Of a stretch of 64,000 bases of DNA, positions 9,048 to 46,756 are shown in pieces. The stretch's first letter is position 1; every line of letters begins with the position of its first letter. A program made the position numbers and the translations under genes. Below the pieces are notes generated by a model. That model was not told the origin of the DNA. It worked only from the letters and a program-made list of their open reading frames with translations, and ran no database searches. The DNA comes from an uncultured Gammaproteobacteria bacterium (GTDB lineage: Bacteria > Patescibacteriota > Patescibacteriia > Magasanikbacterales > UBA922): positions 949,657 to 1,013,656 of the forward strand of contig OZ246405.1 of NCBI GenBank assembly GCA_965231005.1, written 5' to 3'.

Positions 9048-9118
9048 TCGGGGATCGTCTAATGGTAGGACACCAGGTTCTGGTCCTGGGTATCAGGGTT
9101 CGAATCCTTGTCCCCGAG
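9048..9118 (+). tRNA. tRNA-Gln (anticodon CUG), no encoded CCA
   Basis: Manual cloverleaf: acceptor TCGGGGA/TCCCCGA, D-stem GTCT/GGAC (one G.U), anticodon stem CCAGG/CCTGG with loop TTCTGGT, T-arm CAGGG-TTCGAAT-CCTTG, discriminator G. Confidence 0.8.
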
Positions 9119-13067: not shown

Positions 13068-13170
13068 ACTTTTATTATTTCAATACAAACTTTGTTGAGG
13101 TAATAAAAGTGTAGACTTTCCTTTGAGAGTAAACACAACCTGGCAAACACCCGACATGTCGGAGGACATC

Positions 13171-13464
13171 ATGCAACAGCCGCACACTGACGCTTCTACC
13201 GAGACGACAACTCACCCTGATGAGGCAGCTTCCCTGACCTTCGCAGACCTGGACGACGGCGAGCACTTCCTGGTCATCAACGATCTCATGGAAGTCATGG
13301 ACACCCCAGACGATGCGATCACGATTTGGCGCAAGCTCGGCCACAACGGCAGGATGTGCCACAAGGCCAATGCTGCTGGCAACTGCGGCGAAGAAGGCCT
13401 GAAGAGCGGCAAGTGCACGTTCCAGACGTTCGACGACAACACTCCGGTGATTCGCACCAGATAG
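13171..13464 (+). CDS. hypothetical small acidic protein (GC-rich island)
   Basis: GGAGG SD 5 nt before ATG 13171; ~60% GC; ORF-track N-terminus trimmed. Confidence 0.35.
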   Translation: MQQPHTDASTETTTHPDEAASLTFADLDDGEHFLVINDLMEVMDTPDDAITIWRKLGHNGRMCHKANAAGNCGEEGLKSGKCTFQTFDDNTPVIRTR

Positions 13465-13480
13465 CCAAGTGGAGGTCGCG

Positions 13481-13714
13481 ATGAGTAGTCCGCTATCTTG
13501 CAGCTGTCTGTGCCATCAAGGTGGCGCCTGTGGCCTTGTCCCCTGTTGTGACCATGCTGGTTTGCGACCTGAACAGATTCGAACTCCTGCTGAGCAAGCG
13601 TTTCTTGCACATGCATTCGAAGTACTTGAGAACCTTCCTGCATCTCGCGAACTTGAGAAACAGGAAGCTGCTGACACAACACACGAGCTTCCTGATGACA
13701 TCATGGTGAACTAG
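13481..13714 (+). CDS. hypothetical small Cys-rich acidic protein (C-x-C-x-C...CC-x-H cluster)
   Basis: GGAGG SD 5 nt before ATG 13481; 'SCSCLCHQGGACGLVPCCDH'; 16 nt after upstream ORF. Confidence 0.35.
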   Translation: MSSPLSCSCLCHQGGACGLVPCCDHAGLRPEQIRTPAEQAFLAHAFEVLENLPASRELEKQEAADTTHELPDDIMVN

Positions 13715-13730
13715 AACAAAGGAGACATTC

Positions 13731-13763
13731 CCGACGACGGCCCTGCACGTACATCGTCGGGGC
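13731..13763. other. GC hairpin CCCGACGA/TCGTCGGG closing the island
   Basis: 8-bp perfect stem, 17-nt loop, no clear T-run. Confidence 0.35.
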
Positions 13764-35908: not shown

Positions 35909-35937
35909 TTGACAAATTTACCCTCTTTCTGTATAAT
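35909..35937 (+). promoter_or_regulatory. perfect consensus promoter TTGACA-17-TATAAT
   Basis: TTGACA 35909-35914, TATAAT 35932-35937; typical of stable-RNA promoters. Confidence 0.6.
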
Positions 35938-35942
35938 ACGTC

Positions 35943-36508
35943 GTTGTTCCTACCAGAGCAAGTAGCTAGTGATAGCACCAGCTGTTATCTCAGCGACAAG
36001 TTTTTTTGCGTTGCGGGGTCGTGATGATCGACCTTAGACTCTCGGCTTGAGATGCAAAGACCTGGGGGTAGAAAACTAAGAGATTTTTGTGCAACACTCT
36101 TAGAAGAGACTACCACATCGCCCCTGGCGAGTAACTCTTTCTGACCGTCTGATGTTGGTCCTAGCAAAACTCTGTGGCGGAGCGACCTCTGTGCCGATGT
36201 GACTCGTGGTGCGGTTGAACAATCCGTCTTGTCTTCTTAAATGTTGTGGTCCTGTTGAAATCAGGTAATCCGAAAGGATGGGGGCGGCCTAGGCTGTCTG
36301 ATTGCACGACATAAGACCGGGCGAGGAATTCTTCCTTGCTGCCATGATGAGCATTGCTGCGCGGAGAGCCGCGGGCGAGCGTGCGTTTCATTTTTTCCAC
36401 CCCTTGGAGATGGAGCGTGCCTCGCCTGCGGCCTTGATTTTTTTCTTTATCTAAAAAGGTAGAGAGAAAAAAGTAAAACATCCTGATGTGCTCAGGATGT
36501 TTTGTTTT
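35943..36508 (+). ncRNA. unidentified GC-rich structured RNA transcription unit 2 (~570 nt); RNase P-like sequence fragments but not confirmable
   Basis: consensus promoter upstream, terminator 36477-36508 downstream, no ORF; 'AUCAGGUAAUCCGAAAGGAUGGGGGCGG' and 'CACGACAUAAGACCGGGC' resemble RNase P P10-P12/P4 strings but spacing is wrong. Confidence 0.35.
36477..36508. terminator. bidirectional intrinsic terminator (AACATCCTGA-tgtgc-TCAGGATGTT + TTTGTTTT)
   Basis: 10-bp stem; serves RNA unit 2 (+) and the MBL gene (-). Confidence 0.65.
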
Positions 36509-37859
36509 AGACTTCAATGGTTTCTCCAAGTTCGGGAACAAACGCATCAATTCCTAAATCATCTTTTATCCGATGTGCAAGTTCTGTTGCTGCATGTGCT
36601 TCCCCATGAACACAATAGACTTTTGCTGGTTTCTTTTCTGCGTTCGCAATCCAATCAACAAGTTTGTTTTGATCACCGTGAGCAGAGAGCGCACCAATGG
36701 CTTGTATTTTACATTTGACCTGCACATCTTGCCCAAAAATTTTTACTTTTTCAGCACCTTCATACAATCGCCTTCCCAATGTTCCTCTTGCCTGATATCC
36801 AACAATAATGAGTGTTGATTTTGGATCTGAAAGATAGCGAAACAAATGATGCACAATACGTCCCCCATTCATCATACCAGCACCGGCTATTACAATTTTT
36901 GGACCTTTTCTGTGATTAATTTCTTTTGATTCTTGTTTTGATCTTGTAATAATAAGTTGTGGAAATTCAAAAAAGTCATTTCCCTTTGTATATTTTTTAC
37001 ATGCATGTTCATCATAGTATTCTGGATGCTTTTTATAGACTGGCAGAGCATCAATTGCCATGGGACTGTCAAGAAAAATAGGTGCGTCTGGAAGTGTGTT
37101 ATCTGTTTCACTCATTTCATCTAATTCATATAACAATTCTTGTGTGCGTTCAAGTGAAAATGCAGGAATCATAACTGTTCCTCCGCGTTTTACTCCTTCA
37201 GTAATTAAATCAAGAATAATCTGTTTTCTCTCGGTTGTTGTTTCATGAATTCTGTCTCCGTATGTTGATTCACATAATAATACATCTACAGACCCAAGCT
37301 GTTCTGTTTCTTTTAAAATTGGGACATTTGCATTGCCAATATCTCCAGAAAACGCTATTACTTTTCCGCCAATGTGGATTTCAATAAATGATGCACCAAG
37401 AATATGACCTGCATCTTTGAATATTGCATAATCACCATCGCCAAGATCTACCTTTTGGTGGTAGTCAACACCACTGCATTGTGAGACTGCTCTATCAATC
37501 TCTTCCAAGGTAAATAAAATCGGAGACTGGAATTTTTTGTTATTATATGTCATTATCTTGTAGGCGTCTTGCCAAATAAGTTTGGCAAGCCCAGCAGTCC
37601 CCTTTGTCATATATATAGAACCTGTATAGCCATCTCGGATAAGCTTAGGAATCCTTCCACTATGATCATTATGTGCATGACTGACAAGTACTGCATTGAT
37701 TGATGCAGGATCAAAAGGAAAATCATCTGCGTTTCTTCCTTCATTAAAATCACCGCCCTGAAACATACCGCAGTCAAGAAGAATTTTTTTCTTTCCTGTG
37801 TCAATAAGGTGACAAGATCCTGTTACTTCGTGTGCTGCTCCGTGGAACGTTATATTCAT
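36507..37859 (-). CDS. beta-CASP/MBL-fold RNA-metabolising hydrolase (RNase J/CPSF-like)
   Basis: 'HAHNDHSG' motif II, 'MNITFHGAAHEVTGSCHL', beta-CASP insertion, C-terminal His motif. Confidence 0.75.
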   Translation of the reverse strand: MNITFHGAAHEVTGSCHLIDTGKKKILLDCGMFQGGDFNEGRNADDFPFDPASINAVLVSHAHNDHSGRIPKLIRDGYTGSIYMTKGTAGLAKLIWQDAYKIMTYNNKKFQSPILFTLEEIDRAVSQCSGVDYHQKVDLGDGDYAIFKDAGHILGASFIEIHIGGKVIAFSGDIGNANVPILKETEQLGSVDVLLCESTYGDRIHETTTERKQIILDLITEGVKRGGTVMIPAFSLERTQELLYELDEMSETDNTLPDAPIFLDSPMAIDALPVYKKHPEYYDEHACKKYTKGNDFFEFPQLIITRSKQESKEINHRKGPKIVIAGAGMMNGGRIVHHLFRYLSDPKSTLIIVGYQARGTLGRRLYEGAEKVKIFGQDVQVKCKIQAIGALSAHGDQNKLVDWIANAEKKPAKVYCVHGEAHAATELAHRIKDDLGIDAFVPELGETIEV

Positions 37860-41502: not shown

Positions 41503-41550
41503 TAAAAGGCCTTAAAGGCTTTAAAAGCCATAAATGCCGTAAAGGCTAAA
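41501..41550 (+). repeat. short imperfect tandem repeat (~5 x 9-mer TTAAAGGCT) overlapping the murJ stop
   Basis: taaaaggcc ttaaaggct ttaaaagcc ataaatgcc gtaaaggct. Confidence 0.4.
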
Positions 41551-41551
41551 C

Positions 41552-41580
41552 AAAAAAAACACCTTTTTAGGTGTTCTTTT
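41552..41580. terminator. bidirectional intrinsic terminator (AACACCT-tttt-AGGTGTT with A8/T-run flanks)
   Basis: caaaaaaaacacctttttaggtgttctttt. Confidence 0.65.
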
Positions 41581-41686
41581 TGATATCCCCGAACCTTGCA
41601 GTGCGTATTCGTGCGAATACCAACCTTGCTTGGATTCGGGGTGTGGTCCCCTTGTTGAATGTGAATCCCAGGATCGAACCTTTTGA

Positions 41687-42268
41687 TCAGTCTGCGACCA
41701 CGGCCCAGGTGTTCCAGTACTCGAGCGTCTCCTTCGCGTTGGTGCGCACGTCGAACATGTCCCAGTCGTTCACCTCGTTGTTGCCACCGGCGAGGTTGTA
41801 GACCAGTCGGTACGGCGTCAACGCAGCCTTGGGACCGGCGAATGCGAGGACTGCGACGATGACGTGGGTGCAGTCGCTCGCCTTGATCCGCGCTTCTTCC
41901 TCGGGCTCGTCAGCGATGTCCGGATCGTTCAGGTACGCATCACGCGTGTACACCACGCAAGCCAGACCTTCGACTTCGGCAGCCTTGTCTCGACGCAGGA
42001 ACATGCCGGGCTGGCCCCGGTGCGTACGAACCACGTAGTCGTCCGGATCCTTGGACTTATGACCCACACCGGCCGACACCGACGACCACGCAGACTCGGG
42101 CAGATGCACGAAGTGCTGACCTTCTGCACGGTCACCCGACGAGTCATGGGAATCGACCGCGCTGGTCAGTGCAGCCATGAACGAATCGGTGTCGATGACC
42201 TTGGAACCGATCACACCAGTGCTCTTGAAGGCGGTCAGGTCGCCGTAGATCTCAAACTTGATGCTCAT
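41687..42268 (-). CDS. hypothetical protein (GC-rich island, gene 2 of 2)
   Basis: GGGAGG SD, start at second ATG (6-nt spacing); ~60% GC; no recognisable motif. Confidence 0.45.
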   Translation of the reverse strand: MSIKFEIYGDLTAFKSTGVIGSKVIDTDSFMAALTSAVDSHDSSGDRAEGQHFVHLPESAWSSVSAGVGHKSKDPDDYVVRTHRGQPGMFLRRDKAAEVEGLACVVYTRDAYLNDPDIADEPEEEARIKASDCTHVIVAVLAFAGPKAALTPYRLVYNLAGGNNEVNDWDMFDVRTNAKETLEYWNTWAVVAD

Positions 42269-42329
42269 CATGTGCCTCCCGGCGTTGTAATCCAATCGAC
42301 CAGCAAGGTCGAAGGATGTAGAAAATGTG

Positions 42330-42363
42330 GAGAAGAGAAATATTAATCTCTCTTCTCCACACC
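42330..42363. terminator. perfect 12-bp palindrome GTGGAGAAGAGA-n9-TCTCTTCTCCAC between the two island genes
   Basis: probable terminator/operator; short T-run (ATTTTCT) on minus strand. Confidence 0.45.
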
Positions 42364-42594
42364 TTCAAAGTGGGGTCACTTTAAAGAGCGATTGCTTTTC
42401 GTCCTTGTCATATTCTGTTTGGACTTCAGCCATAGGCTGAACAGTTTCCACTGTCATCAGTACTGAATTCATCAGTAGAAGCGATGCGGAATAGATAGCA
42501 TATTCCGCACCCTCCCTTGTTGAATTGTTGTTGTCGTTCTACCCAGTCATGGCTATCATCTGTTGCCAGATCATGACTGTTTGATGAACGATTA

Positions 42595-43317
42595 CTAGCG
42601 CCGTGCGCGGCGATCAGCCCGGTCGAACCGCATCTCGATGGCCTCAGCCTCGATCTCAGCCTGCTGCTGTCTCACTTCCCCGGTCAGATCCCCGTGCGTA
42701 GCGATGTGCAGAGCGAGCATCTGCTCGAGCAGATCGATTTCCTGCTGCGCGCGACTCCACTGGCTCTCTTCCGGAAAGTCATACAGATCCGTGGTCTTGC
42801 ACCTGATCTCGTCGAGAAGCGTCACCTGAAAGGTCCACGGATCGCAGAGCTCGGGGAACTTGCGCGTGTGGCAGACCTTTCGGATGAAATGCCAGATGTG
42901 ATTCAGACGCGAGGGCTTTTCCTCGACGAACGAACCCGCACCCTCGACCACCGAGCACTGCTTGACTTCACCGTCTGCGACCTCGAGGACGAAGTAGGGC
43001 TCACGAGCCTTGCGCCAGCCCGGGCTGTACAGGCCGATGGTCAGCGTGGTGTCAGTTGCACGAACCTGCATGCGACCGCTGGAAGTGGTGTAGCAGAGTG
43101 CGCCTTCACCATCGAGCGTCCACGTTGCCTTGGTCCAGCCGAACTCGCCTTGCGGGGGCTTCTTGTCCTTGCGGGTCTCGACCAGCTTGTGCAGCTCTCC
43201 GATGTTGATGTCCGCAGGACTAACCCCGGGGGGATGACAGGTGTGACGCAGCATCCGCATGATGTACATCACGAGAGCAACGATGTTTTCAAACCGATTC
43301 TTCTTGACATTGGCCAT
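42595..43317 (-). CDS. hypothetical protein (GC-rich island, gene 1 of 2)
   Basis: AAGGAGGT SD 5 nt upstream of ATG 43317 (ORF 42595..43476 trimmed); C-terminal Arg/Glu/Gln-rich helix. Confidence 0.45.
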   Translation of the reverse strand: MANVKKNRFENIVALVMYIMRMLRHTCHPPGVSPADINIGELHKLVETRKDKKPPQGEFGWTKATWTLDGEGALCYTTSSGRMQVRATDTTLTIGLYSPGWRKAREPYFVLEVADGEVKQCSVVEGAGSFVEEKPSRLNHIWHFIRKVCHTRKFPELCDPWTFQVTLLDEIRCKTTDLYDFPEESQWSRAQQEIDLLEQMLALHIATHGDLTGEVRQQQAEIEAEAIEMRFDRADRRARR

Positions 43318-43634
43318 TGTGCACCTCCTTGGTTGTGCGAATGAGCGGCCAAACTCATGCGCTAGTGCGACCATGTTCATTATTGTTAATGGAAATGGTT
43401 GCACTACCAAGGTGGTATAAAAAGAACGGCCTTTGTGTAGAATTTTTTGCCTACACAAGACAACGTAGTCTAGCACAAAAAAAGGCTTTTGTCAAGGGGT
43501 TTTTGGCCTTTTTGGGCTAAAATAAAGGAAAAAAACAATAATTTTAGAACTTTTATGTTTTCTTGATAATAGATTTATTAATATTATTCCTGTACGGTTG
43601 ATATATAGATCCAAAATGTGTTTAATTATATACA

Positions 43635-44216
43635 GTGCTTAACGCTAACTCTATGACAGATACCGAACATAATAAATCAGACATATTAATAGTTCTTGAT
43701 GTTGATGAAACACTAATTCATGCAACAGACGAAAAATTAAATCAGAAAGAAGATTTCAAGGTCTTTGATTATTTTGTATATAAAAGACCACATTTACAAT
43801 CCTTCTTAGAAGAACTATATAAACACTTTAGGCTTGGTATTTGGTCATCTGCGAGTGATGATTTTGTAGAAGAAGTTATCAAAGTCATTGCACCAGAACA
43901 TATAGACTTTGAAATGATATGGGGCAGAAGTCGTTGTTCATTTAGAAGGGATATTGAAATTGATAGGTACTATTATGAAAAAAGGTTAAAAAAATTAAAA
44001 AGAAAGGGACATGATTTAGATAAAATTCTTTTAATTGATGATACACCAGAAAAGGCAAGAAGAAATTATGGGAATGCTATTTATATTCAAGAATTTACAG
44101 GAGATAAAGAAGATAATGAATTGCAAATATTATTAAAGTATTTGATTTCTTTGAAAGATGTTGAGAATGTTAGAGCGATAGAAAAGAGGGGGTGGAAGAA
44201 TTCGATTGAGAAATAG
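43635..44216 (+). CDS. NIF/FCP1-like HAD-family protein phosphatase (CTD-phosphatase-like)
   Basis: 'ILIVLDVDETLIHA' DxDxT motif, 'VYKRPHLQSFLEELYKHFRLGIWSSAS', 'LLIDDTPEK'. Confidence 0.65.
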   Translation: MLNANSMTDTEHNKSDILIVLDVDETLIHATDEKLNQKEDFKVFDYFVYKRPHLQSFLEELYKHFRLGIWSSASDDFVEEVIKVIAPEHIDFEMIWGRSRCSFRRDIEIDRYYYEKRLKKLKRKGHDLDKILLIDDTPEKARRNYGNAIYIQEFTGDKEDNELQILLKYLISLKDVENVRAIEKRGWKNSIEK

Positions 44217-44399
44217 AGATTCGGATTCGTTTTTCCAAAGTTACATCCCATTTAAACAGGATTTATAAAGATCAGCGGCAGTATTTTTTCTTTAAGCAAG
44301 CAAAGAGCAGTGTAGTGCTCAAAAAAAATTTTAGATACTATATATTGTGGATAACTTTATCTCATGAATATGTTATAATTTATATATAAAAATTTAATG

Positions 44400-44960
44400 T
44401 CTTTGCGGGACTCAAAGACAATGGCCGAGGAAACCCAAACCACCATTCAGGCGGGAACTTCGTAGGCAATGTCTAGAAATAGATTGCGCCCTACGCAAAG
44501 TCCCAACTAGCTTAGGGCAATGTTGCAAAACAAAGTCCTATGAAGTCTCGGCCTGGCTGGTGGTGTTTTTGTAAAAGGAATCTCTGAGTGAGTCATAATA
44601 GCCTCGTAACCACTTGCGGGGCAATATGGTTCACTTTTAAGAGCCAGGAAAATACCTTTGCTTATGCCTTGCAAAAGAAATAGCAAATGTAAAACTTCCT
44701 CTAAGCGCAAGACTGTAAGAGTCGTTGCACATAAGCGCAGACCGCGTTGCTAATATGTGTAAACCACTTATTAGGCGTTTGCCAGAGGAATCCTATTTTC
44801 CATGTATCACAAAACCGCACAATTAAGTACGGCTTGTGAGACCACTGACTAGAGATCAGTGATGGAAAATATGTTGAAAACCGAGGGTGTTCACAGACGT
44901 GTGAGCATCCTGTGGTTTTTATTTTAGAACTTATAAAAAGTTCTATAGGGGCGCGAGATT
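44400..44960 (+). ncRNA. GC-rich non-coding region, probably one or two structured RNAs (candidate tmRNA body or other stable RNA); identity unresolved
   Basis: ~50% GC, no ORF, internal T-run terminator-like sites at ~44573 and ~44927. Confidence 0.3.
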
Positions 44961-44962
44961 AG

Positions 44963-45047
44963 GGGGGAGATGTGACAGGTGTCACGGACAGGATTTATAC
45001 CCTGTTTGCTTCGTCGGCGTGGGGTTCAATACCCCTCTCCTCCACCA
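44963..45047 (+). ncRNA. 85-nt tRNA-like element with G3:U70 acceptor pair, T-arm GGGGTTCAATACCCC and 3' CCACCA (tmRNA tRNA-like domain or atypical type-II tRNA)
   Basis: acceptor GGGGGAG/CTCCTCC (7 bp incl. G.U at position 3), D-arm GTGAC-agg-TGTCAC, second hairpin ACAGG-8nt-CCTGT, encoded ACCA end; followed by GGACTTTTTTT. Confidence 0.45.
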
Positions 45048-45454
45048 AATCTTTCTCGCGTCTCTATAGGACTTTTTTTATTTTTGACGACAAAAAAATG
45101 TACCAAAGTTATCCACATTTGTCAAGTTTGTAAATGCAAAAATTGTCTTTGAACATTTTTTCCTCACAGACTTGCTTTAAAAAAAACGCTAATTTAAGCA
45201 ATTATTTTAAGAAGGCTAACGATACATTTATTATATAGTATTTTTTTTAAACACACAACACGGGTGCAATCTTTGTAAAATTTTGTAGAATTATTTTAGA
45301 GAAAAATTTCTTGCATTTTCTGCATGATTTTATTTTTTCTTCATATTGATTTTACTAGTATTACCTATAAGAAAGTAGACCGACTCATTCAGACAATTTG
45401 ATTTTCTAAATACATTAATATAATTCCCAAAAATCTCTCAAACTTATAAATACT

Positions 45455-46144
45455 ATGACCAATCTAGAAAAACAAGTCAGCGACATAACTATAGGCATTA
45501 GATTTCAGAGATCCTTCAAGATTCAGGACATACTAGGCACAATAACTGATAAACTCCTTCATGATGAAAACTCACCGCTGAGTGTAGACTACTTCCCTAG
45601 GAGAGATCAGAACTTATCCGAAATGATTCTAACAAACGACAAAGAATCTTACTTGAAGGTTAATACGGATGATATTATTTTTAGGCATTCAATTGAAAAA
45701 GACCTACACAATGACATAGAGTTTATGAAAGAATACTTAAAATATATCAGGAAATTGCTTAGAAAATATAATATTCAAAATATTACAAGAATCGGGATTA
45801 TCTACAACCATAAATTTAAGGGAGACCAATCAAAATTTGATGATGCAATAAAATCAATAACAAACAACACCCTAGTTGAAACTGATAATTTTTCATTTTC
45901 GTTCTCAAAAAAAATTCCAGATCCCACTGCCTTGTATGATACGGACGTTGATGATTATCGAAATGTTATTTATATATTTAAAAAGATTTCAGACAAAATA
46001 TTTTCTGCGAGTGTAGATTATCAAAAATATTTTAAACCACCCCTTGAGTATATCGAAGATGAACTTTACGAGAATCTATTGAATGATAGTAGACATTTTT
46101 TAGAAAAAAAGTTTTATAATATTTTTTTAGACATAGATGAGTAA
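45455..46144 (+). CDS. hypothetical protein
   Basis: 229-aa AT-rich ORF downstream of the tRNA-like element. Confidence 0.4.
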   Translation: MTNLEKQVSDITIGIRFQRSFKIQDILGTITDKLLHDENSPLSVDYFPRRDQNLSEMILTNDKESYLKVNTDDIIFRHSIEKDLHNDIEFMKEYLKYIRKLLRKYNIQNITRIGIIYNHKFKGDQSKFDDAIKSITNNTLVETDNFSFSFSKKIPDPTALYDTDVDDYRNVIYIFKKISDKIFSASVDYQKYFKPPLEYIEDELYENLLNDSRHFLEKKFYNIFLDIDE

Positions 46145-46670
46145 AAAAAATAATCCAAGAAAAAGAACTCGACAAAAAGATAGAATTGATAGAAAAAACT
46201 ATGCAGGTTCCTTGGGATTGCATCCAGTAGATGGAACTGAGAAAGAAGCATCTACTTTATCTTCAGACTCATCAACATTCAAACAAAGGGAAAGACCTAA
46301 AAAAACCAAAAAAAGACCTAAAAAGAGAAAGTCAGCAAGTAAAAAGACCTCTGATCACATAAAGAAAAATTGGGTTAACTATTTGATATCTGGTTTGTGG
46401 GTGATTGCATGCTTCTTATTTTTAAATGACTACAATTTTAATGCAGATTTAAAAGTAGCTGAGAATAAAATACTAAACATAGAAAAACGCATTACTGAAT
46501 ACAAGGAGAGCGGGATAATCTCCAAAGAGGAGTACCAAAATTTTGAAAATGAAATTGAAAAAATAAAGAATACATATTCAAAACTAGACAAAGTCAACAA
46601 ATTAGAAAAAGACCTTGAGATACTTAAAATATCTACAGAAAAAGACCTAGAAAATCTAAAGAATAGCTGA
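46137..46670 (+). CDS. hypothetical Lys-rich membrane/coiled-coil protein
   Basis: start overlaps previous stop (ATGAGTAA); one TM (WVNYLISGLWVIACFLFL) then coiled-coil. Confidence 0.4.
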   Translation: MSKKNNPRKRTRQKDRIDRKNYAGSLGLHPVDGTEKEASTLSSDSSTFKQRERPKKTKKRPKKRKSASKKTSDHIKKNWVNYLISGLWVIACFLFLNDYNFNADLKVAENKILNIEKRITEYKESGIISKEEYQNFENEIEKIKNTYSKLDKVNKLEKDLEILKISTEKDLENLKNS

Positions 46671-46756
46671 CTTGCCCCACCCCTCATTTTAAGGTAAAAT
46701 ATAAGCAAAAGAATAGAGGCCTTTTTGGCCTATTTTTGTGAATCTCTCCCTTATTT

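What the first reader, a model, noticed from the sequence alone, without database searches (positions are those of the whole stretch)
44400..45060. GC-rich RNA region ending in an 85-nt tRNA-like element with G3:U70 and a tmRNA-like CCACCA end
The element 44963-45047 folds as acceptor GGGGGAG/CTCCTCC (G.U at position 3, the alanine identity pair used by tmRNA), a D-like hairpin, a second hairpin with an 8-nt loop, a short extra arm and a T-arm GGGG-TTCAATA-CCCC. The 3' end ACCA is genome-encoded and is followed by GGACTTTTTTT. The 3' half closely resembles tmRNA (ssrA) termini, yet a canonical tmRNA would need its GGGG 5' acceptor strand ~350 nt upstream. The only complementary 5' strand sits 85 nt upstream, giving a complete tRNA-sized molecule. 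The upstream 560 nt (44400-44960) are GC-rich, ORF-free and contain internal T-run stops. The options are a non-canonical tmRNA arrangement, an atypical type-II tRNA with an 8-nt anticodon loop, or a tRNA-like element attached to a longer RNA. The AT-rich genes just downstream (45455..46670) would then sit where ssrA-targeting islands usually integrate.
Basis: seen in the sequence. Interest (0 to 1): 0.6.

Follow-up and report, generated by a model that had tools for sequence, protein, structure and literature searches.

The report
Irregular alanine tRNA-like gene, island-borne
An 85-base gene folds into an unusual, probably alanine-accepting tRNA-shaped RNA; it sits next to a roughly 540-base structured RNA of unknown kind inside a 5-kb block of foreign DNA in a small CPR (Patescibacteria) genome, and it is not a tmRNA.

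Summary
Bases 44963-45047 fold into a clean five-arm cloverleaf with a G3·U70 pair, A73, a UUCAAUA T-loop and an encoded CCA. The 536 bases upstream are ORF-poor and strongly structured (z -9.2).

The tmRNA reading does not hold. The Rfam tmRNA model matches only the acceptor and T arms (24.5 bits, gathering score 47), with the 310-position body deleted. No permuted-tmRNA match appears, no tag frame exists, and the upstream RNA matches no Rfam family. The element has its own D and anticodon arms, which a tmRNA tRNA-like domain lacks.

Its shape resembles the "allo-tRNAs": an 8-bp acceptor stem, a 4-bp T stem, a 5-bp D stem with a tetraloop and a variable arm. It differs in having an 8-base anticodon loop (UUAU: UUA or UAU). 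A 24-bp leader/trailer helix followed by a U-run encloses it.

The host is Patescibacteria (LepA 77-84% identical to Magasanikbacteria). Its closest relatives have murJ directly next to lepA, so 41503-46690, which includes both RNAs, is an accessory insertion.

No homologue of either RNA was found, so function is inferred: most likely an island-borne, alanine-charged irregular tRNA.

The parts
41503..46690 (.). Accessory insertion between murJ (ends 41502) and the lepA promoter. It is a mosaic of two ~57-60% GC orphan genes, a NIF phosphatase gene, the two RNAs, and an AT-rich two-gene module.
   Evidence: Relatives with LepA 82-84% identical have corA-murJ-lepA-recJ with only 44-88 nt between murJ and lepA. 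The conserved lepA promoter block AAGGTAAAATA resumes at about 46690.
44346..44358 (.). Left copy of a perfect 13-nt inverted repeat, TGTGGATAACTTT. It contains a consensus DnaA box and lies just upstream of the + strand -10 element.
   Evidence: (repeat I14, 100% complementary).
44370..44378 (+). Extended -10 promoter-like element TGTTATAAT. The inferred transcription start is near 44385.
   Evidence: Read from the sequence. The conserved promoter in the same genome is sigma-70-like, TTGACA-17-TATAAT. The start site is an inference.
44385..44925 (+). Orphan structured RNA of about 540 nt. It has a 5' hairpin (44398-44420), a 127-nt multibranch domain closed by ACCACCA/UGGUGGU and followed by a U-run (44439-44570), further hairpins, and a terminal terminator.
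   Evidence: MFE -189.6 kcal/mol with z -9.2 on the + strand, against -173.2 and z -6.7 on the - strand. No Rfam family at E<=10. No match in phage or plasmid collections. No ORF above 67 aa.
44884..44925 (+). Intrinsic terminator: a 12-bp core within a roughly 21-bp hairpin, followed by UUUUUAUUUU.
44936..44959 (+). Leader strand of the 24-bp leader/trailer helix (AAAAAGUUCUAUAGGGGCGCGAGA).
   Evidence: z -8.3 for 44925-45085. All 3 non-Watson-Crick positions are G·U on the + strand and would be A·C on the - strand.
44963..45047 (+). 85-nt tRNA-like gene. Acceptor 44963-70/45036-43 (8 bp, G3·U70); D arm 44972-85 (5 bp plus AGGU); anticodon arm 44988-45005 (loop AUUUAUAC 44993-45000); variable arm 45007-19; T arm 45021-35 (4 bp plus UUCAAUA); A73-CCA 45044-47.
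   Evidence: The sequence is identical in three independent contigs.
45054..45085 (+). Trailer strand of the helix (45054-77), running into the U-runs (45073-79 and 45081-85). Together with the leader it has the shape of a bidirectional terminator.
45097..45125 (-). Promoter-like site TTGACA-17-TACATT with a TG extension. It points leftwards, so it would give an RNA antisense to the tRNA-like gene. Its spacer holds the right copy of the 13-nt repeat (45105-45117).
   Evidence: This is a consensus match only; activity is inferred.
45455..46670 (+). AT-rich overlapping gene pair (229 aa and 177 aa) of unknown function. It is accessory.
   Evidence: Only 10 homologues exist. In other contigs the pair lies directly beside methylase, GmrSD/HNH or ApaLI restriction genes. 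No Pfam, NCBIfam or PADLOC family matches. The predicted structure has no convincing PDB match.

Best explanation
44963-45047 is a gene for an irregular tRNA-class RNA, not a tmRNA. Three things are shown.
- It is a complete cloverleaf with an 8-bp acceptor stem, a 4-bp T stem, a 5-bp D stem with a tetraloop, a variable arm, a canonical T-loop and an encoded CCA.
- It carries the alanine identity set (G3·U70, A73).
- It lies in a strain-specific 5.2-kb insertion of a Patescibacteria genome.

The rest is inferred. The RNA is transcribed by read-through from the upstream RNA or from a weak local promoter. It folds inside a 24-bp leader/trailer hairpin. RNase P cuts before G1, and 3' trimming stops at CCA. 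AlaRS then charges it with alanine.

Its 8-base loop AUUUAUAC offers UUA (reads UAA), UAU (reads AUA) or the quadruplet UUAU. UAA ends 68% of the genes counted in this window, and AUA is a common codon. Efficient decoding would therefore be harmful. I think it most likely acts as a low-level or conditionally expressed accessory RNA of mobile DNA: a recoding or mistranslating tRNA, or a charged non-decoding tRNA mimic. A convergent antisense promoter possibly holds it in check.

The adjacent roughly 540-nt RNA is a separate, terminated transcript of unknown family carried in the same cassette.
For: - Clean cloverleaf. The 8/4 split needs no mismatch, whereas a 7/5 split would need a U·U pair.
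- Significant match of the acceptor and T arms to the tRNA/tmRNA clan: E 1e-7. The pattern is unique in the window.
- CCA is encoded here, whereas the host tRNA-Gln gene does not encode CCA.
- The leader/trailer helix has G·U pairs only on the + strand.
- Insertion status.
- The region is identical in three independent contigs from two runs.
- Precedent from Mukai et al. 2017 (PMC5389517) and the review PMC7609411. 8/4 and 9/3 allo-tRNAs have long D stems with tetraloops and variable arms. Some carry G3:U70 and insert Ala in E. coli. UAU is their commonest anticodon and UAA-reading forms exist. They sit near toxin-antitoxin and transposon genes, and some are toxic or inactive in decoding.
- An 8-nt anticodon loop is compatible with decoding in yeast mt-tRNA-Thr.
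- Stop-codon and AUA usage.
Against: - No homologue was found in 185,579 genomes, JGI metagenomes or viral contigs. There is therefore no covariation or conservation evidence.
- ARAGORN and Rfam do not call it at default thresholds.
- The relaxed ARAGORN call is not significant.
- No clear promoter of its own exists, and a strong terminator lies 40 nt upstream.
- The variable arm has only 3-4 bp.
- A73 and G3·U70 differ from the usual Ser identity of allo-tRNAs.
- Charging, processing and expression are all untested.
Confidence: 0.45

Rival explanations
1. It is a 3'-end module of the upstream RNA. In this reading the tRNA-like fold within a leader/trailer helix is an RNase P (or RNase III) processing signal and terminator that defines or stabilises the 3' end of the ~540-nt RNA, as mascRNA does for MALAT1. 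The released small RNA would be a by-product.
For: - Same strand, 40 nt downstream of the large RNA.
- The 24-bp leader/trailer helix has an A-rich leader and a U-rich trailer.
- In MALAT1 a leader-trailer interaction that extends the mascRNA acceptor stem is required for RNase P maturation (PMC8457004).
- No convincing separate promoter for the element was found.
Against: - The upstream RNA already ends in a strong intrinsic terminator at 44884-44925, which makes an RNase P-made end redundant.
- A mere processing signal would not need the full alanine identity set, the encoded CCA, or the anticodon and variable arms.
- No bacterial precedent is known to me.
Confidence: 0.2
2. It is a tag-less (tRNA-like-domain-only) tmRNA derivative that binds SmpB. 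It would either rescue ribosomes without tagging or titrate SmpB, as proposed for the mycobacteriophage DS6A element.
For: - The best Rfam match in the clan is tmRNA RF00023.
- CCA is encoded, as in tmRNA genes.
- CDS-less tmRNAs are known in mitochondria, plastids and phage DS6A. Three 'Standard NoCDS' cases are recorded in Patescibacteria (PMC11915505; PMC4131195).
- Clearly TLD-like minis occur in other CPR genomes (L007 scores 38.1 bits; L019).
Against: - A tmRNA TLD lacks an anticodon stem-loop, and SmpB occupies that space (PMC4131195). This element has paired D, anticodon and variable arms.
- The score is 24.5 bits against a gathering score of 47, and it comes only from features shared with tRNA-Ala.
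- Relaxed ARAGORN finds no tmRNA.
Confidence: 0.12
3. It is an inert relic: a tRNA or tmRNA-derived fragment carried in with foreign DNA, neither expressed nor selected. The upstream 'RNA' would be only structured spacer.
For: - It is a single instance with no homologues.
- It sits in a mosaic insertion.
- No strong promoter precedes the element.
Against: - Every stem is intact, with only Watson-Crick or G·U pairs.
- The T-loop, the GG in the D-loop, G3·U70, A73 and CCA are all present.
- The 24-bp flanking helix has strand-specific G·U pairs.
- The upstream region has z -9.2, a promoter-like element and terminators.
- In a 37% GC genome, decay would erode the 56% GC of the element.
Confidence: 0.15
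4. It is a non-canonical tmRNA in which 44400-44960 is the mRNA-like body and the 85-nt element is the tRNA-like part. This could be a new permutation or a two-piece form held together by base pairing.
For: - Adjacency of the two RNAs.
- The frame ENTFAYALQKK* at about 44647-44685 faintly recalls ENYALAA-type tags.
Against: - Neither the tmRNA nor the permuted-tmRNA model matches the upstream RNA.
- The putative tag does not end in Ala-Ala.
- Duplex energy between the element and the upstream RNA (-52.5 kcal/mol) is no better than for shuffles (mean -55).
- RNase P would sever the two parts.
- A terminator lies between them.
- The region is an insertion, and 5,252 standard tmRNAs are recorded for 6,765 Patescibacteria genomes.
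Confidence: 0.03

Closest known systems
Allo-tRNAs (8/4 and 9/3 tRNASec-like tRNAs; Mukai et al. 2017, PMC5389517)
   Same: - A 12-bp acceptor branch split 8/4.
- A long D stem with a tetraloop.
- An extra (variable) arm and a possibly extended anticodon stem.
- Some members have G3:U70 and insert Ala.
- UAU and UAA-reading anticodons occur.
- They lie in accessory, toxin-antitoxin or transposon contexts, and some are toxic or inactive in decoding.
   Different: - This element has an 8-nt rather than a 7-nt anticodon loop.
- It has A73 rather than G73 or U73.
- Its variable arm is short (3-4 bp).
- It encodes CCA.
- The host is Patescibacteria, not Acidobacteria, Clostridia or Proteobacteria.
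- Sequence homology to published allo-tRNAs could not be tested because no sequences were available.
tRNA-like-domain-only (CDS-less) tmRNAs: mycobacteriophage DS6A, jakobid mitochondria, Mallomonadaceae plastids, three Patescibacteria 'Standard NoCDS' entries
   Same: - GGGG...CUCCACCA acceptor with G3·U70.
- A T arm and an encoded CCA.
- No mRNA-like domain.
- Small size.
- In DS6A, a mobile-element host.
   Different: True TLDs have an unpaired D region and a single P2 helix in place of the anticodon arm. This element has three paired arms between the acceptor and T arms. It scores 24.5 bits, below the gathering score of 47.
MALAT1-mascRNA (and NEAT1-menRNA) in vertebrates
   Same: - A long structured non-coding RNA is followed on the same strand by a tRNA-like element.
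- The acceptor stem of that element is extended by a leader-trailer pairing between an A-rich leader and a U-rich trailer.
   Different: - That system is eukaryotic.
- mascRNA has no aminoacylation identity and is not CCA-encoded.
- Here an intrinsic terminator separates the two RNAs.
Bacterial tRNA-Ala
   Same: G1-G2-G3·U70-G4, A73 and the UUC-type T-loop. The 3' end CUCCACCA is identical in form.
   Different: This element has 8/4 rather than 7/5 geometry, a tetraloop D arm, a variable arm, an 8-nt loop without a GC-ending Ala anticodon, and a length of 85 nt.
tRNAs with 8-nt anticodon loops (+1 frameshift suppressors; yeast mt-tRNA-Thr UAG)
   Same: An enlarged 8-nt anticodon loop on an otherwise complete cloverleaf.
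   Different: Those are variants of ordinary 7/5 tRNAs with known codon targets. No target is shown here.

Membership tests
tmRNA, standard form (RF00023) | A tRNA-like domain whose 5' and 3' halves flank an mRNA-like domain with a tag reading frame and pseudoknots | tested here: not met
   Only 50 nt lie between the acceptor 5' strand and the T arm. The model aligns with 310 positions deleted, at 24.5 bits against a gathering score of 47. ARAGORN finds no tmRNA even at an 80% threshold.
tmRNA, standard form (RF00023) | A tag peptide frame ending in hydrophobic-Ala-Ala-stop | tested here: not met
   A three-frame translation of 44380-44965 shows none. The nearest candidate is ENTFAYALQKK*.
tmRNA, permuted two-piece form (RF04321 and older RF01849-51) | The acceptor piece ending in CCA lies upstream of a coding piece that begins with the 5' acceptor strand | tested here: not met
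   No permuted-model match at E<=10 in 44100-45300. Both acceptor strands lie in one 85-nt unit, and no GGGG strand follows CCA.
TLD-only (CDS-less) tmRNA | No anticodon stem-loop and no paired D arm; a single P2-type helix where SmpB docks | tested here: not met
   The MFE and ARAGORN folds show D (5 bp), anticodon (5-6 bp) and variable arms. The defining feature is taken from PMC4131195.
TLD-only (CDS-less) tmRNA | Binding to SmpB, and co-occurrence with smpB | not testable with these tools
   There is no smpB in the 64-kb window (tblastn). The rest of the genome is not available.
Allo-tRNA (8/4) | A 12-bp acceptor branch made of an 8-bp acceptor stem and a 4-bp T stem | tested here: met
   GGGGGAGA/UCUCCUCC plus GGGG/CCCC, all Watson-Crick or G·U. 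A 7/5 split would need a U·U pair.
Allo-tRNA (8/4) | A tRNASec-like D arm: long stem with a tetraloop | tested here: met
   GUGAC-AGGU-GUCAC. The feature is described in PMC5389517.
Allo-tRNA (8/4) | A long variable arm and Ser identity (G73 or U73) | tested here: inconclusive
   The variable region is 13-15 nt but has only 3-4 bp. The discriminator is A73 with G3·U70, which is Ala rather than Ser identity. Some published allo-tRNAs also carry G3:U70.
Allo-tRNA (8/4) | A 7-nt anticodon loop | tested here: not met
   The loop AUUUAUAC is 8 nt, and no alternative pairing gives 7.
Allo-tRNA (8/4) | Sequence homology to described allo-tRNAs | not testable with these tools
   No supplementary sequences are held for that paper.
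Canonical tRNA (RF00005 / ARAGORN) | Detected at curated thresholds, with 7/5 geometry and a 7-nt anticodon loop | tested here: not met
   Not called by ARAGORN at default or 90-95% thresholds, nor by Rfam at gathering.
AlaRS substrates | A G3·U70 wobble pair in the acceptor stem, with A73 | tested here: met
   Read from the sequence and folds. Charging itself was not tested.
Group I intron (including divergent Patescibacteria tRNA introns) | Flanking exons of an interrupted RNA gene, and a P3-P9 catalytic core | tested here: inconclusive
   RF00028 gives no match at E<=10. The tRNA-like gene and its T-loop are uninterrupted, and no 5' exon lies upstream. PMC13011429 reports that Patescibacteria introns can escape RF00028, so a free-standing divergent intron-like RNA cannot be excluded.

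The most novel reading that the evidence does not exclude
The 772-bp cassette bounded by the perfect 13-bp inverted repeats (44346-45117) may be a self-contained RNA-only mobile module. It would combine a ~540-nt structured RNA with an alanine-charged 8/4 tRNA carrying a four-base (UUAU) anticodon. That tRNA would misread UAA or AUA(A) and so be toxic. It would be kept in check by a cis-antisense RNA from the convergent promoter at 45125-45097. This amounts to an RNA-toxin/RNA-antitoxin or recoding device that stabilises accessory DNA in CPR bacteria. The TLD-like RNAs with cognate antisense sRNAs seen in other CPR genomes (L007, L019) would be relatives of this arrangement.
Probability: 0.1. 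Interest if true: 0.8.

Novelty: new variant of a known kind. Interest (0 to 1): 0.45.

Why it matters
If the RNA is made and charged, it adds Patescibacteria and an alanine-identity, 8-nt-loop form to the small set of natural tRNAs with an 8/4 acceptor branch. It would be another case of irregular tRNAs travelling with accessory DNA, which bears on how mobile elements manipulate decoding or exploit tRNA mimicry.

It also shows a practical point. A 'tmRNA-like' acceptor/T arm with CCA is not enough to call ssrA, and islands can carry such elements rather than target them.

The neighbouring ~540-nt RNA, and a second conserved ~560-nt RNA at 35.9-36.5 kb, show that this CPR lineage carries large structured RNAs absent from Rfam.

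Tried and rejected
1. Canonical or permuted tmRNA. Rejected on Rfam gathering and E<=10 scans, ARAGORN default and relaxed runs, and tag-frame translation.
2. Upstream RNA as a known family (RNase P, 6S, SRP, GOLLD, ROOL, group I/II introns and others). No Rfam hit at E<=10. No blastn match in phages or plasmids. No paralogue in the window.
3. Homologues of the element. One genome scan, one metagenome scan and two viral scans were run. They found only canonical or permuted tmRNAs, chance hits in coding sequence, and other mini tRNA-like elements. None had this architecture or the upstream RNA.
4. Synteny route through neighbouring genes.
   - NIF homologues and homologues of the 229-aa protein do not carry the RNAs.
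   - LepA homologues showed that the locus is an insertion.
5. My first guess that the host was Bacteroidota, based on the NIF gene, was wrong. LepA places the host in Patescibacteria.
6. Base pairing between the element and the upstream or downstream RNA, as seen in L007 and L019. No exact complement of 9 nt or more exists, and duplex energy is no better than for shuffles.
7. att-site duplication. Only a 12-nt repeat, ACAGGATTTATA (44256 and 44988), was found. It is near chance level, and no 3'-end duplicate exists.
8. Relaxed ARAGORN as evidence. Rejected after the shuffle control.
9. Function of the 229-aa neighbour. The AlphaFold model has pLDDT 76, but no PDB match exceeds TM 0.32. The afdb50 library was unavailable.
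10. smpB in the window: none.
11. Chromosomal origin, suggested by the DnaA boxes. Not supported, because the region is absent from relatives and there is no dnaA context.
Full report
**What is there.** Bases 44963-45047 read GGGGGAGAUGUGACAGGUGUCACGGACAGGAUUUAUACCCUGUUUGCUUCGUCGGCGUGGGGUUCAAUACCCCUCUCCUCCACCA. The minimum-energy fold is a five-arm cloverleaf at -38.3 kcal/mol (z -3.2; 0 of 200 shuffles as stable). Its parts are:
- an 8-bp acceptor stem with a G·U at position 3;
- a 5-bp D stem closed by AGGU;
- a 5-6-bp stem with the 8-nt loop AUUUAUAC;
- a short extra arm;
- a 4-bp T stem with loop UUCAAUA;
- an unpaired ACCA.

ARAGORN at default settings and Rfam at gathering thresholds find only a tRNA-Gln at 9048 in the whole window. 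A permissive Rfam scan of 44100-45300 gives one significant hit: tmRNA RF00023 on exactly 44963-45047. It scores 24.5 bits (gathering 47) with E 1.1e-7, and 310 of the 374 model positions are deleted. The match therefore rests on the acceptor stem, the T arm and CCACCA. The T-arm/CCACCA pattern is unique in the window, against 0.00 expected.

**The flanking helix.** AAAAAGUUCUAUAGGGGCGCGAGA (44936-59) pairs with UCUCGCGUCUCUAUAGGACUUUUU (45054-77), and U-runs follow (z -8.3). The three positions where the two arms are not exact DNA complements are all G·U on the + strand. They would be A·C on the - strand, which points to a + strand RNA.

**The upstream region.** Bases 44390-44925 are 43.5% GC, between spacers of 26-28% GC. 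No ORF exceeds 67 aa. The + strand folds at -189.6 kcal/mol (z -9.2), against -173.2 (z -6.7) for the - strand.
- An extended -10 element (TGTTATAAT, 44370-78) precedes the region.
- Terminator-like hairpins with U-runs end at about 44570 and about 44925. The second is a long hairpin with a 12-bp core.
- No Rfam family matches at E<=10: not tmRNA, permuted tmRNA, RNase P, group I/II introns, GOLLD or ROOL.
- Nothing similar occurs in the phage or plasmid collections or elsewhere in the window.
- No frame ends in Ala-Ala-stop.
- Its complementarity to the tRNA-like element is no better than that of shuffled sequence.

It is best described as a separate, terminated, orphan structured RNA of about 540 nt.

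**Host and genomic status.**
- The NIF phosphatase gene upstream has named homologues mainly in Bacteroidota.
- LepA, just downstream, is 77-84% identical to proteins of Candidatus Magasanikbacteria and other Patescibacteria. The contig is 1.23 Mb at 37% GC, so the host is a CPR bacterium.
- In the closest relatives (LepA 82-84%) the order is corA-murJ-lepA-...-recJ, with 44-88 nt between murJ and lepA. The conserved lepA promoter block resumes in the window at about 46690.
- Bases 41503-46690 are therefore an insertion. It holds two ~57-60% GC orphan genes, the NIF gene, both RNAs, and a 30% GC gene pair.
- That pair has only ten homologues, and these lie directly beside methylase, GmrSD/HNH or ApaLI restriction genes.
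- Three independently assembled contigs from two runs carry the RNA region, identical over 1235 bases, joined to NIF on one side; the 229-aa gene follows in all three and lepA is reached in one. The arrangement is not a chimera.
- The two ENA contigs both end inside the high-GC genes, so the murJ junction is not independently confirmed.
- The relatives' 22-kb loci contain no tRNA or tmRNA.

The tRNA-like gene arrived with accessory DNA. It is not a resident ssrA that islands target.

**Why it is not a tmRNA.**
- Standard tmRNA needs an mRNA-like body between the two halves of the tRNA-like domain. Here only 50 nt separate them.
- Permuted tmRNA needs the CCA-ending piece upstream of a piece that starts with the 5' acceptor strand. 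Here both strands lie in one unit, and RF04321 does not match.
- Tag-less, TLD-only tmRNAs do exist. Examples are phage DS6A, mitochondria, two plastids and three 'Standard NoCDS' entries in Patescibacteria (PMC11915505; PMC4131195).
- But a TLD lacks an anticodon stem-loop, and SmpB fills that space. This element has paired D, anticodon and variable arms.
- The features shared with tmRNA (GGGG..CUCCACCA, G3·U70, A73) are equally those of tRNA-Ala, which tmRNA mimics (established knowledge).
- The host tRNA-Gln gene lacks an encoded CCA. The encoded CCA here is notable, but it does not discriminate between the readings.
- The published census records 5,252 standard tmRNAs for 6,765 Patescibacteria genomes, so the host probably has an ordinary ssrA elsewhere. 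That could not be checked. There is no smpB in the window.

**What it resembles.** The 8/4 split of the acceptor branch, the long D stem with a tetraloop and the extra arm are the hallmarks of the 'allo-tRNAs' of Mukai et al. 2017 (PMC5389517; review PMC7609411). In that family:
- some members carry G3:U70 and insert alanine in E. coli;
- UAU is the commonest anticodon, and UAA-reading forms occur;
- many sit near toxin-antitoxin or transposon genes;
- several are toxic or inactive in decoding.

The present element differs in its 8-nt loop, A73, a short variable arm and its host phylum. Relaxed ARAGORN draws the same 8/4 cloverleaf with the four-base anticodon UUAU, labelled 'Stop|Ile'. That threshold, however, gives 27 calls in the window and 17-33 in shuffles. 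I use it only as a drawing, not as evidence.

**Likely mechanism.**
- Shown: the fold, the identity elements and the accessory location.
- Inferred: transcription by read-through or from a weak -10 at 44932; RNase P cleavage before G1; trimming to CCA; charging by AlaRS.
- Among 44 ORFs I counted in the window, 30 end in UAA, and AUA makes up 14.7 per 1000 codons. Efficient decoding through UUA, UAU or UUAU would therefore be harmful. This argues for low or conditional expression, or for a charged but non-decoding role.
- A good sigma-70-like promoter on the opposite strand (TTGACA-17-TACATT with a TG extension, 45125-45097) would produce an antisense RNA. Its spacer holds one copy of a perfect 13-nt inverted repeat (TGTGGATAACTTT, containing a DnaA box). 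The other copy lies next to the + strand -10. These repeats bound a 772-bp cassette that holds both RNAs. Their meaning is unknown.

**Rivals.**
- A mascRNA-like 3'-processing module (PMC8457004). It is weakened by the terminator that already ends the upstream RNA.
- A TLD-only SmpB decoy. It is weakened by the extra arms.
- An inert relic. It is weakened by the flawless stems and the strand-specific G·U pairs.
- A novel tmRNA arrangement. It is essentially excluded.

**Limits.** No homologue of either RNA was found. There is therefore no covariation evidence, and all functional statements are inference.

Noticed in passing
L007:5431-5620 and L007:5885-6080 (Saccharibacteria MAG); L019:7130-7330 (Patescibacteria MAG): Three ~70-nt tmRNA-TLD-like genes (G3·U70, encoded CCA; Rfam tmRNA 38.1 bits for one) are each followed within 3-8 nt by a TTGACA-17/18-TAnnnT promoter and a ~70-90-nt terminated sRNA. 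The sRNA's 5' 12-20 nt are antisense to the middle arm of its own TLD. Cognate duplexes are -40 to -42 kcal/mol, against -16 to -26 for non-cognate pairs. This may be an undescribed tRNA-like/antisense RNA pair.
   Followed up: partly
L009:7049-7120 (-), L020:1177-1246, L012:999-1072 (-) (= L038): Irregular Ala-type tRNA-like elements (GGGG..CUCCACCA, T-loop UUCAAUA) lie 37-130 nt upstream of IS1-family transposase genes (PF03400) in a Chitinophagaceae MAG, a Bacteroidota MAG and a Deltaproteobacteria MAG. The L012 loop AUUUACA resembles the window's AUUUAUAC.
   Followed up: partly
window 35909-36510 (+): A strong promoter (TTGACA-17-TATAAT) is followed by about 560 nt of 46% GC, ORF-poor sequence that ends in a terminator hairpin. 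The syntenic gap in relative L041 (4826-5315) has the same promoter and a conserved 5' start. No Rfam family matches at E<=5. This is a candidate lineage-specific core non-coding RNA.
   Followed up: partly
window 41660-43350 and about 13150-13760: Stretches of ~57-60% GC with orphan ORFs lie in a 37% GC genome. No Pfam, NCBIfam or PADLOC hits were found for the 41.7-43.3 kb pair. They look like recent transfers from a high-GC donor. Both ENA contigs covering the locus end inside the 41.7-43.3 kb stretch.
   Followed up: partly
window 44346-44358 and 45105-45117: A perfect 13-nt inverted repeat, TGTGGATAACTTT/AAAGTTATCCACA, contains the consensus DnaA box. It brackets both RNAs and sits in or next to the two convergent promoter-like sites. 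Four perfect TTATCCACA boxes occur in the window.
   Followed up: partly
window 45455-46670; L031-L036: An overlapping 229-aa plus ~180-aa gene pair has only ten homologues. In other contigs it lies directly downstream of restriction-modification or GmrSD genes. No known defence family matches, and the predicted structure (pLDDT 76) has no PDB match. It may be an undescribed defence-island module.
   Followed up: partly
window 44256-44267 and 44988-44999: A 12-nt direct repeat, ACAGGATTTATA, copies the 5' side of the element's anticodon arm and loop to a site 40 nt after the NIF stop codon. It is near chance level for this AT-rich region, and no other att-like duplication exists.
   Followed up: yes
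window 41585-41660: A GC-rich hairpin cluster (CCCCGAA...GTATTCGTGCGAATAC...TTCGGGG) lies at the left edge of the high-GC genes, just after the murJ terminator. Its nature is unknown.
   Followed up: no
L040:2100-2400: A circularly permuted tmRNA gene (acceptor piece ending CCACCA, immediately followed by GGGGATG... and a tag frame ending ALAA*) lies in a short AT-rich metagenome contig. It was picked up by the T-loop pattern.
   Followed up: no
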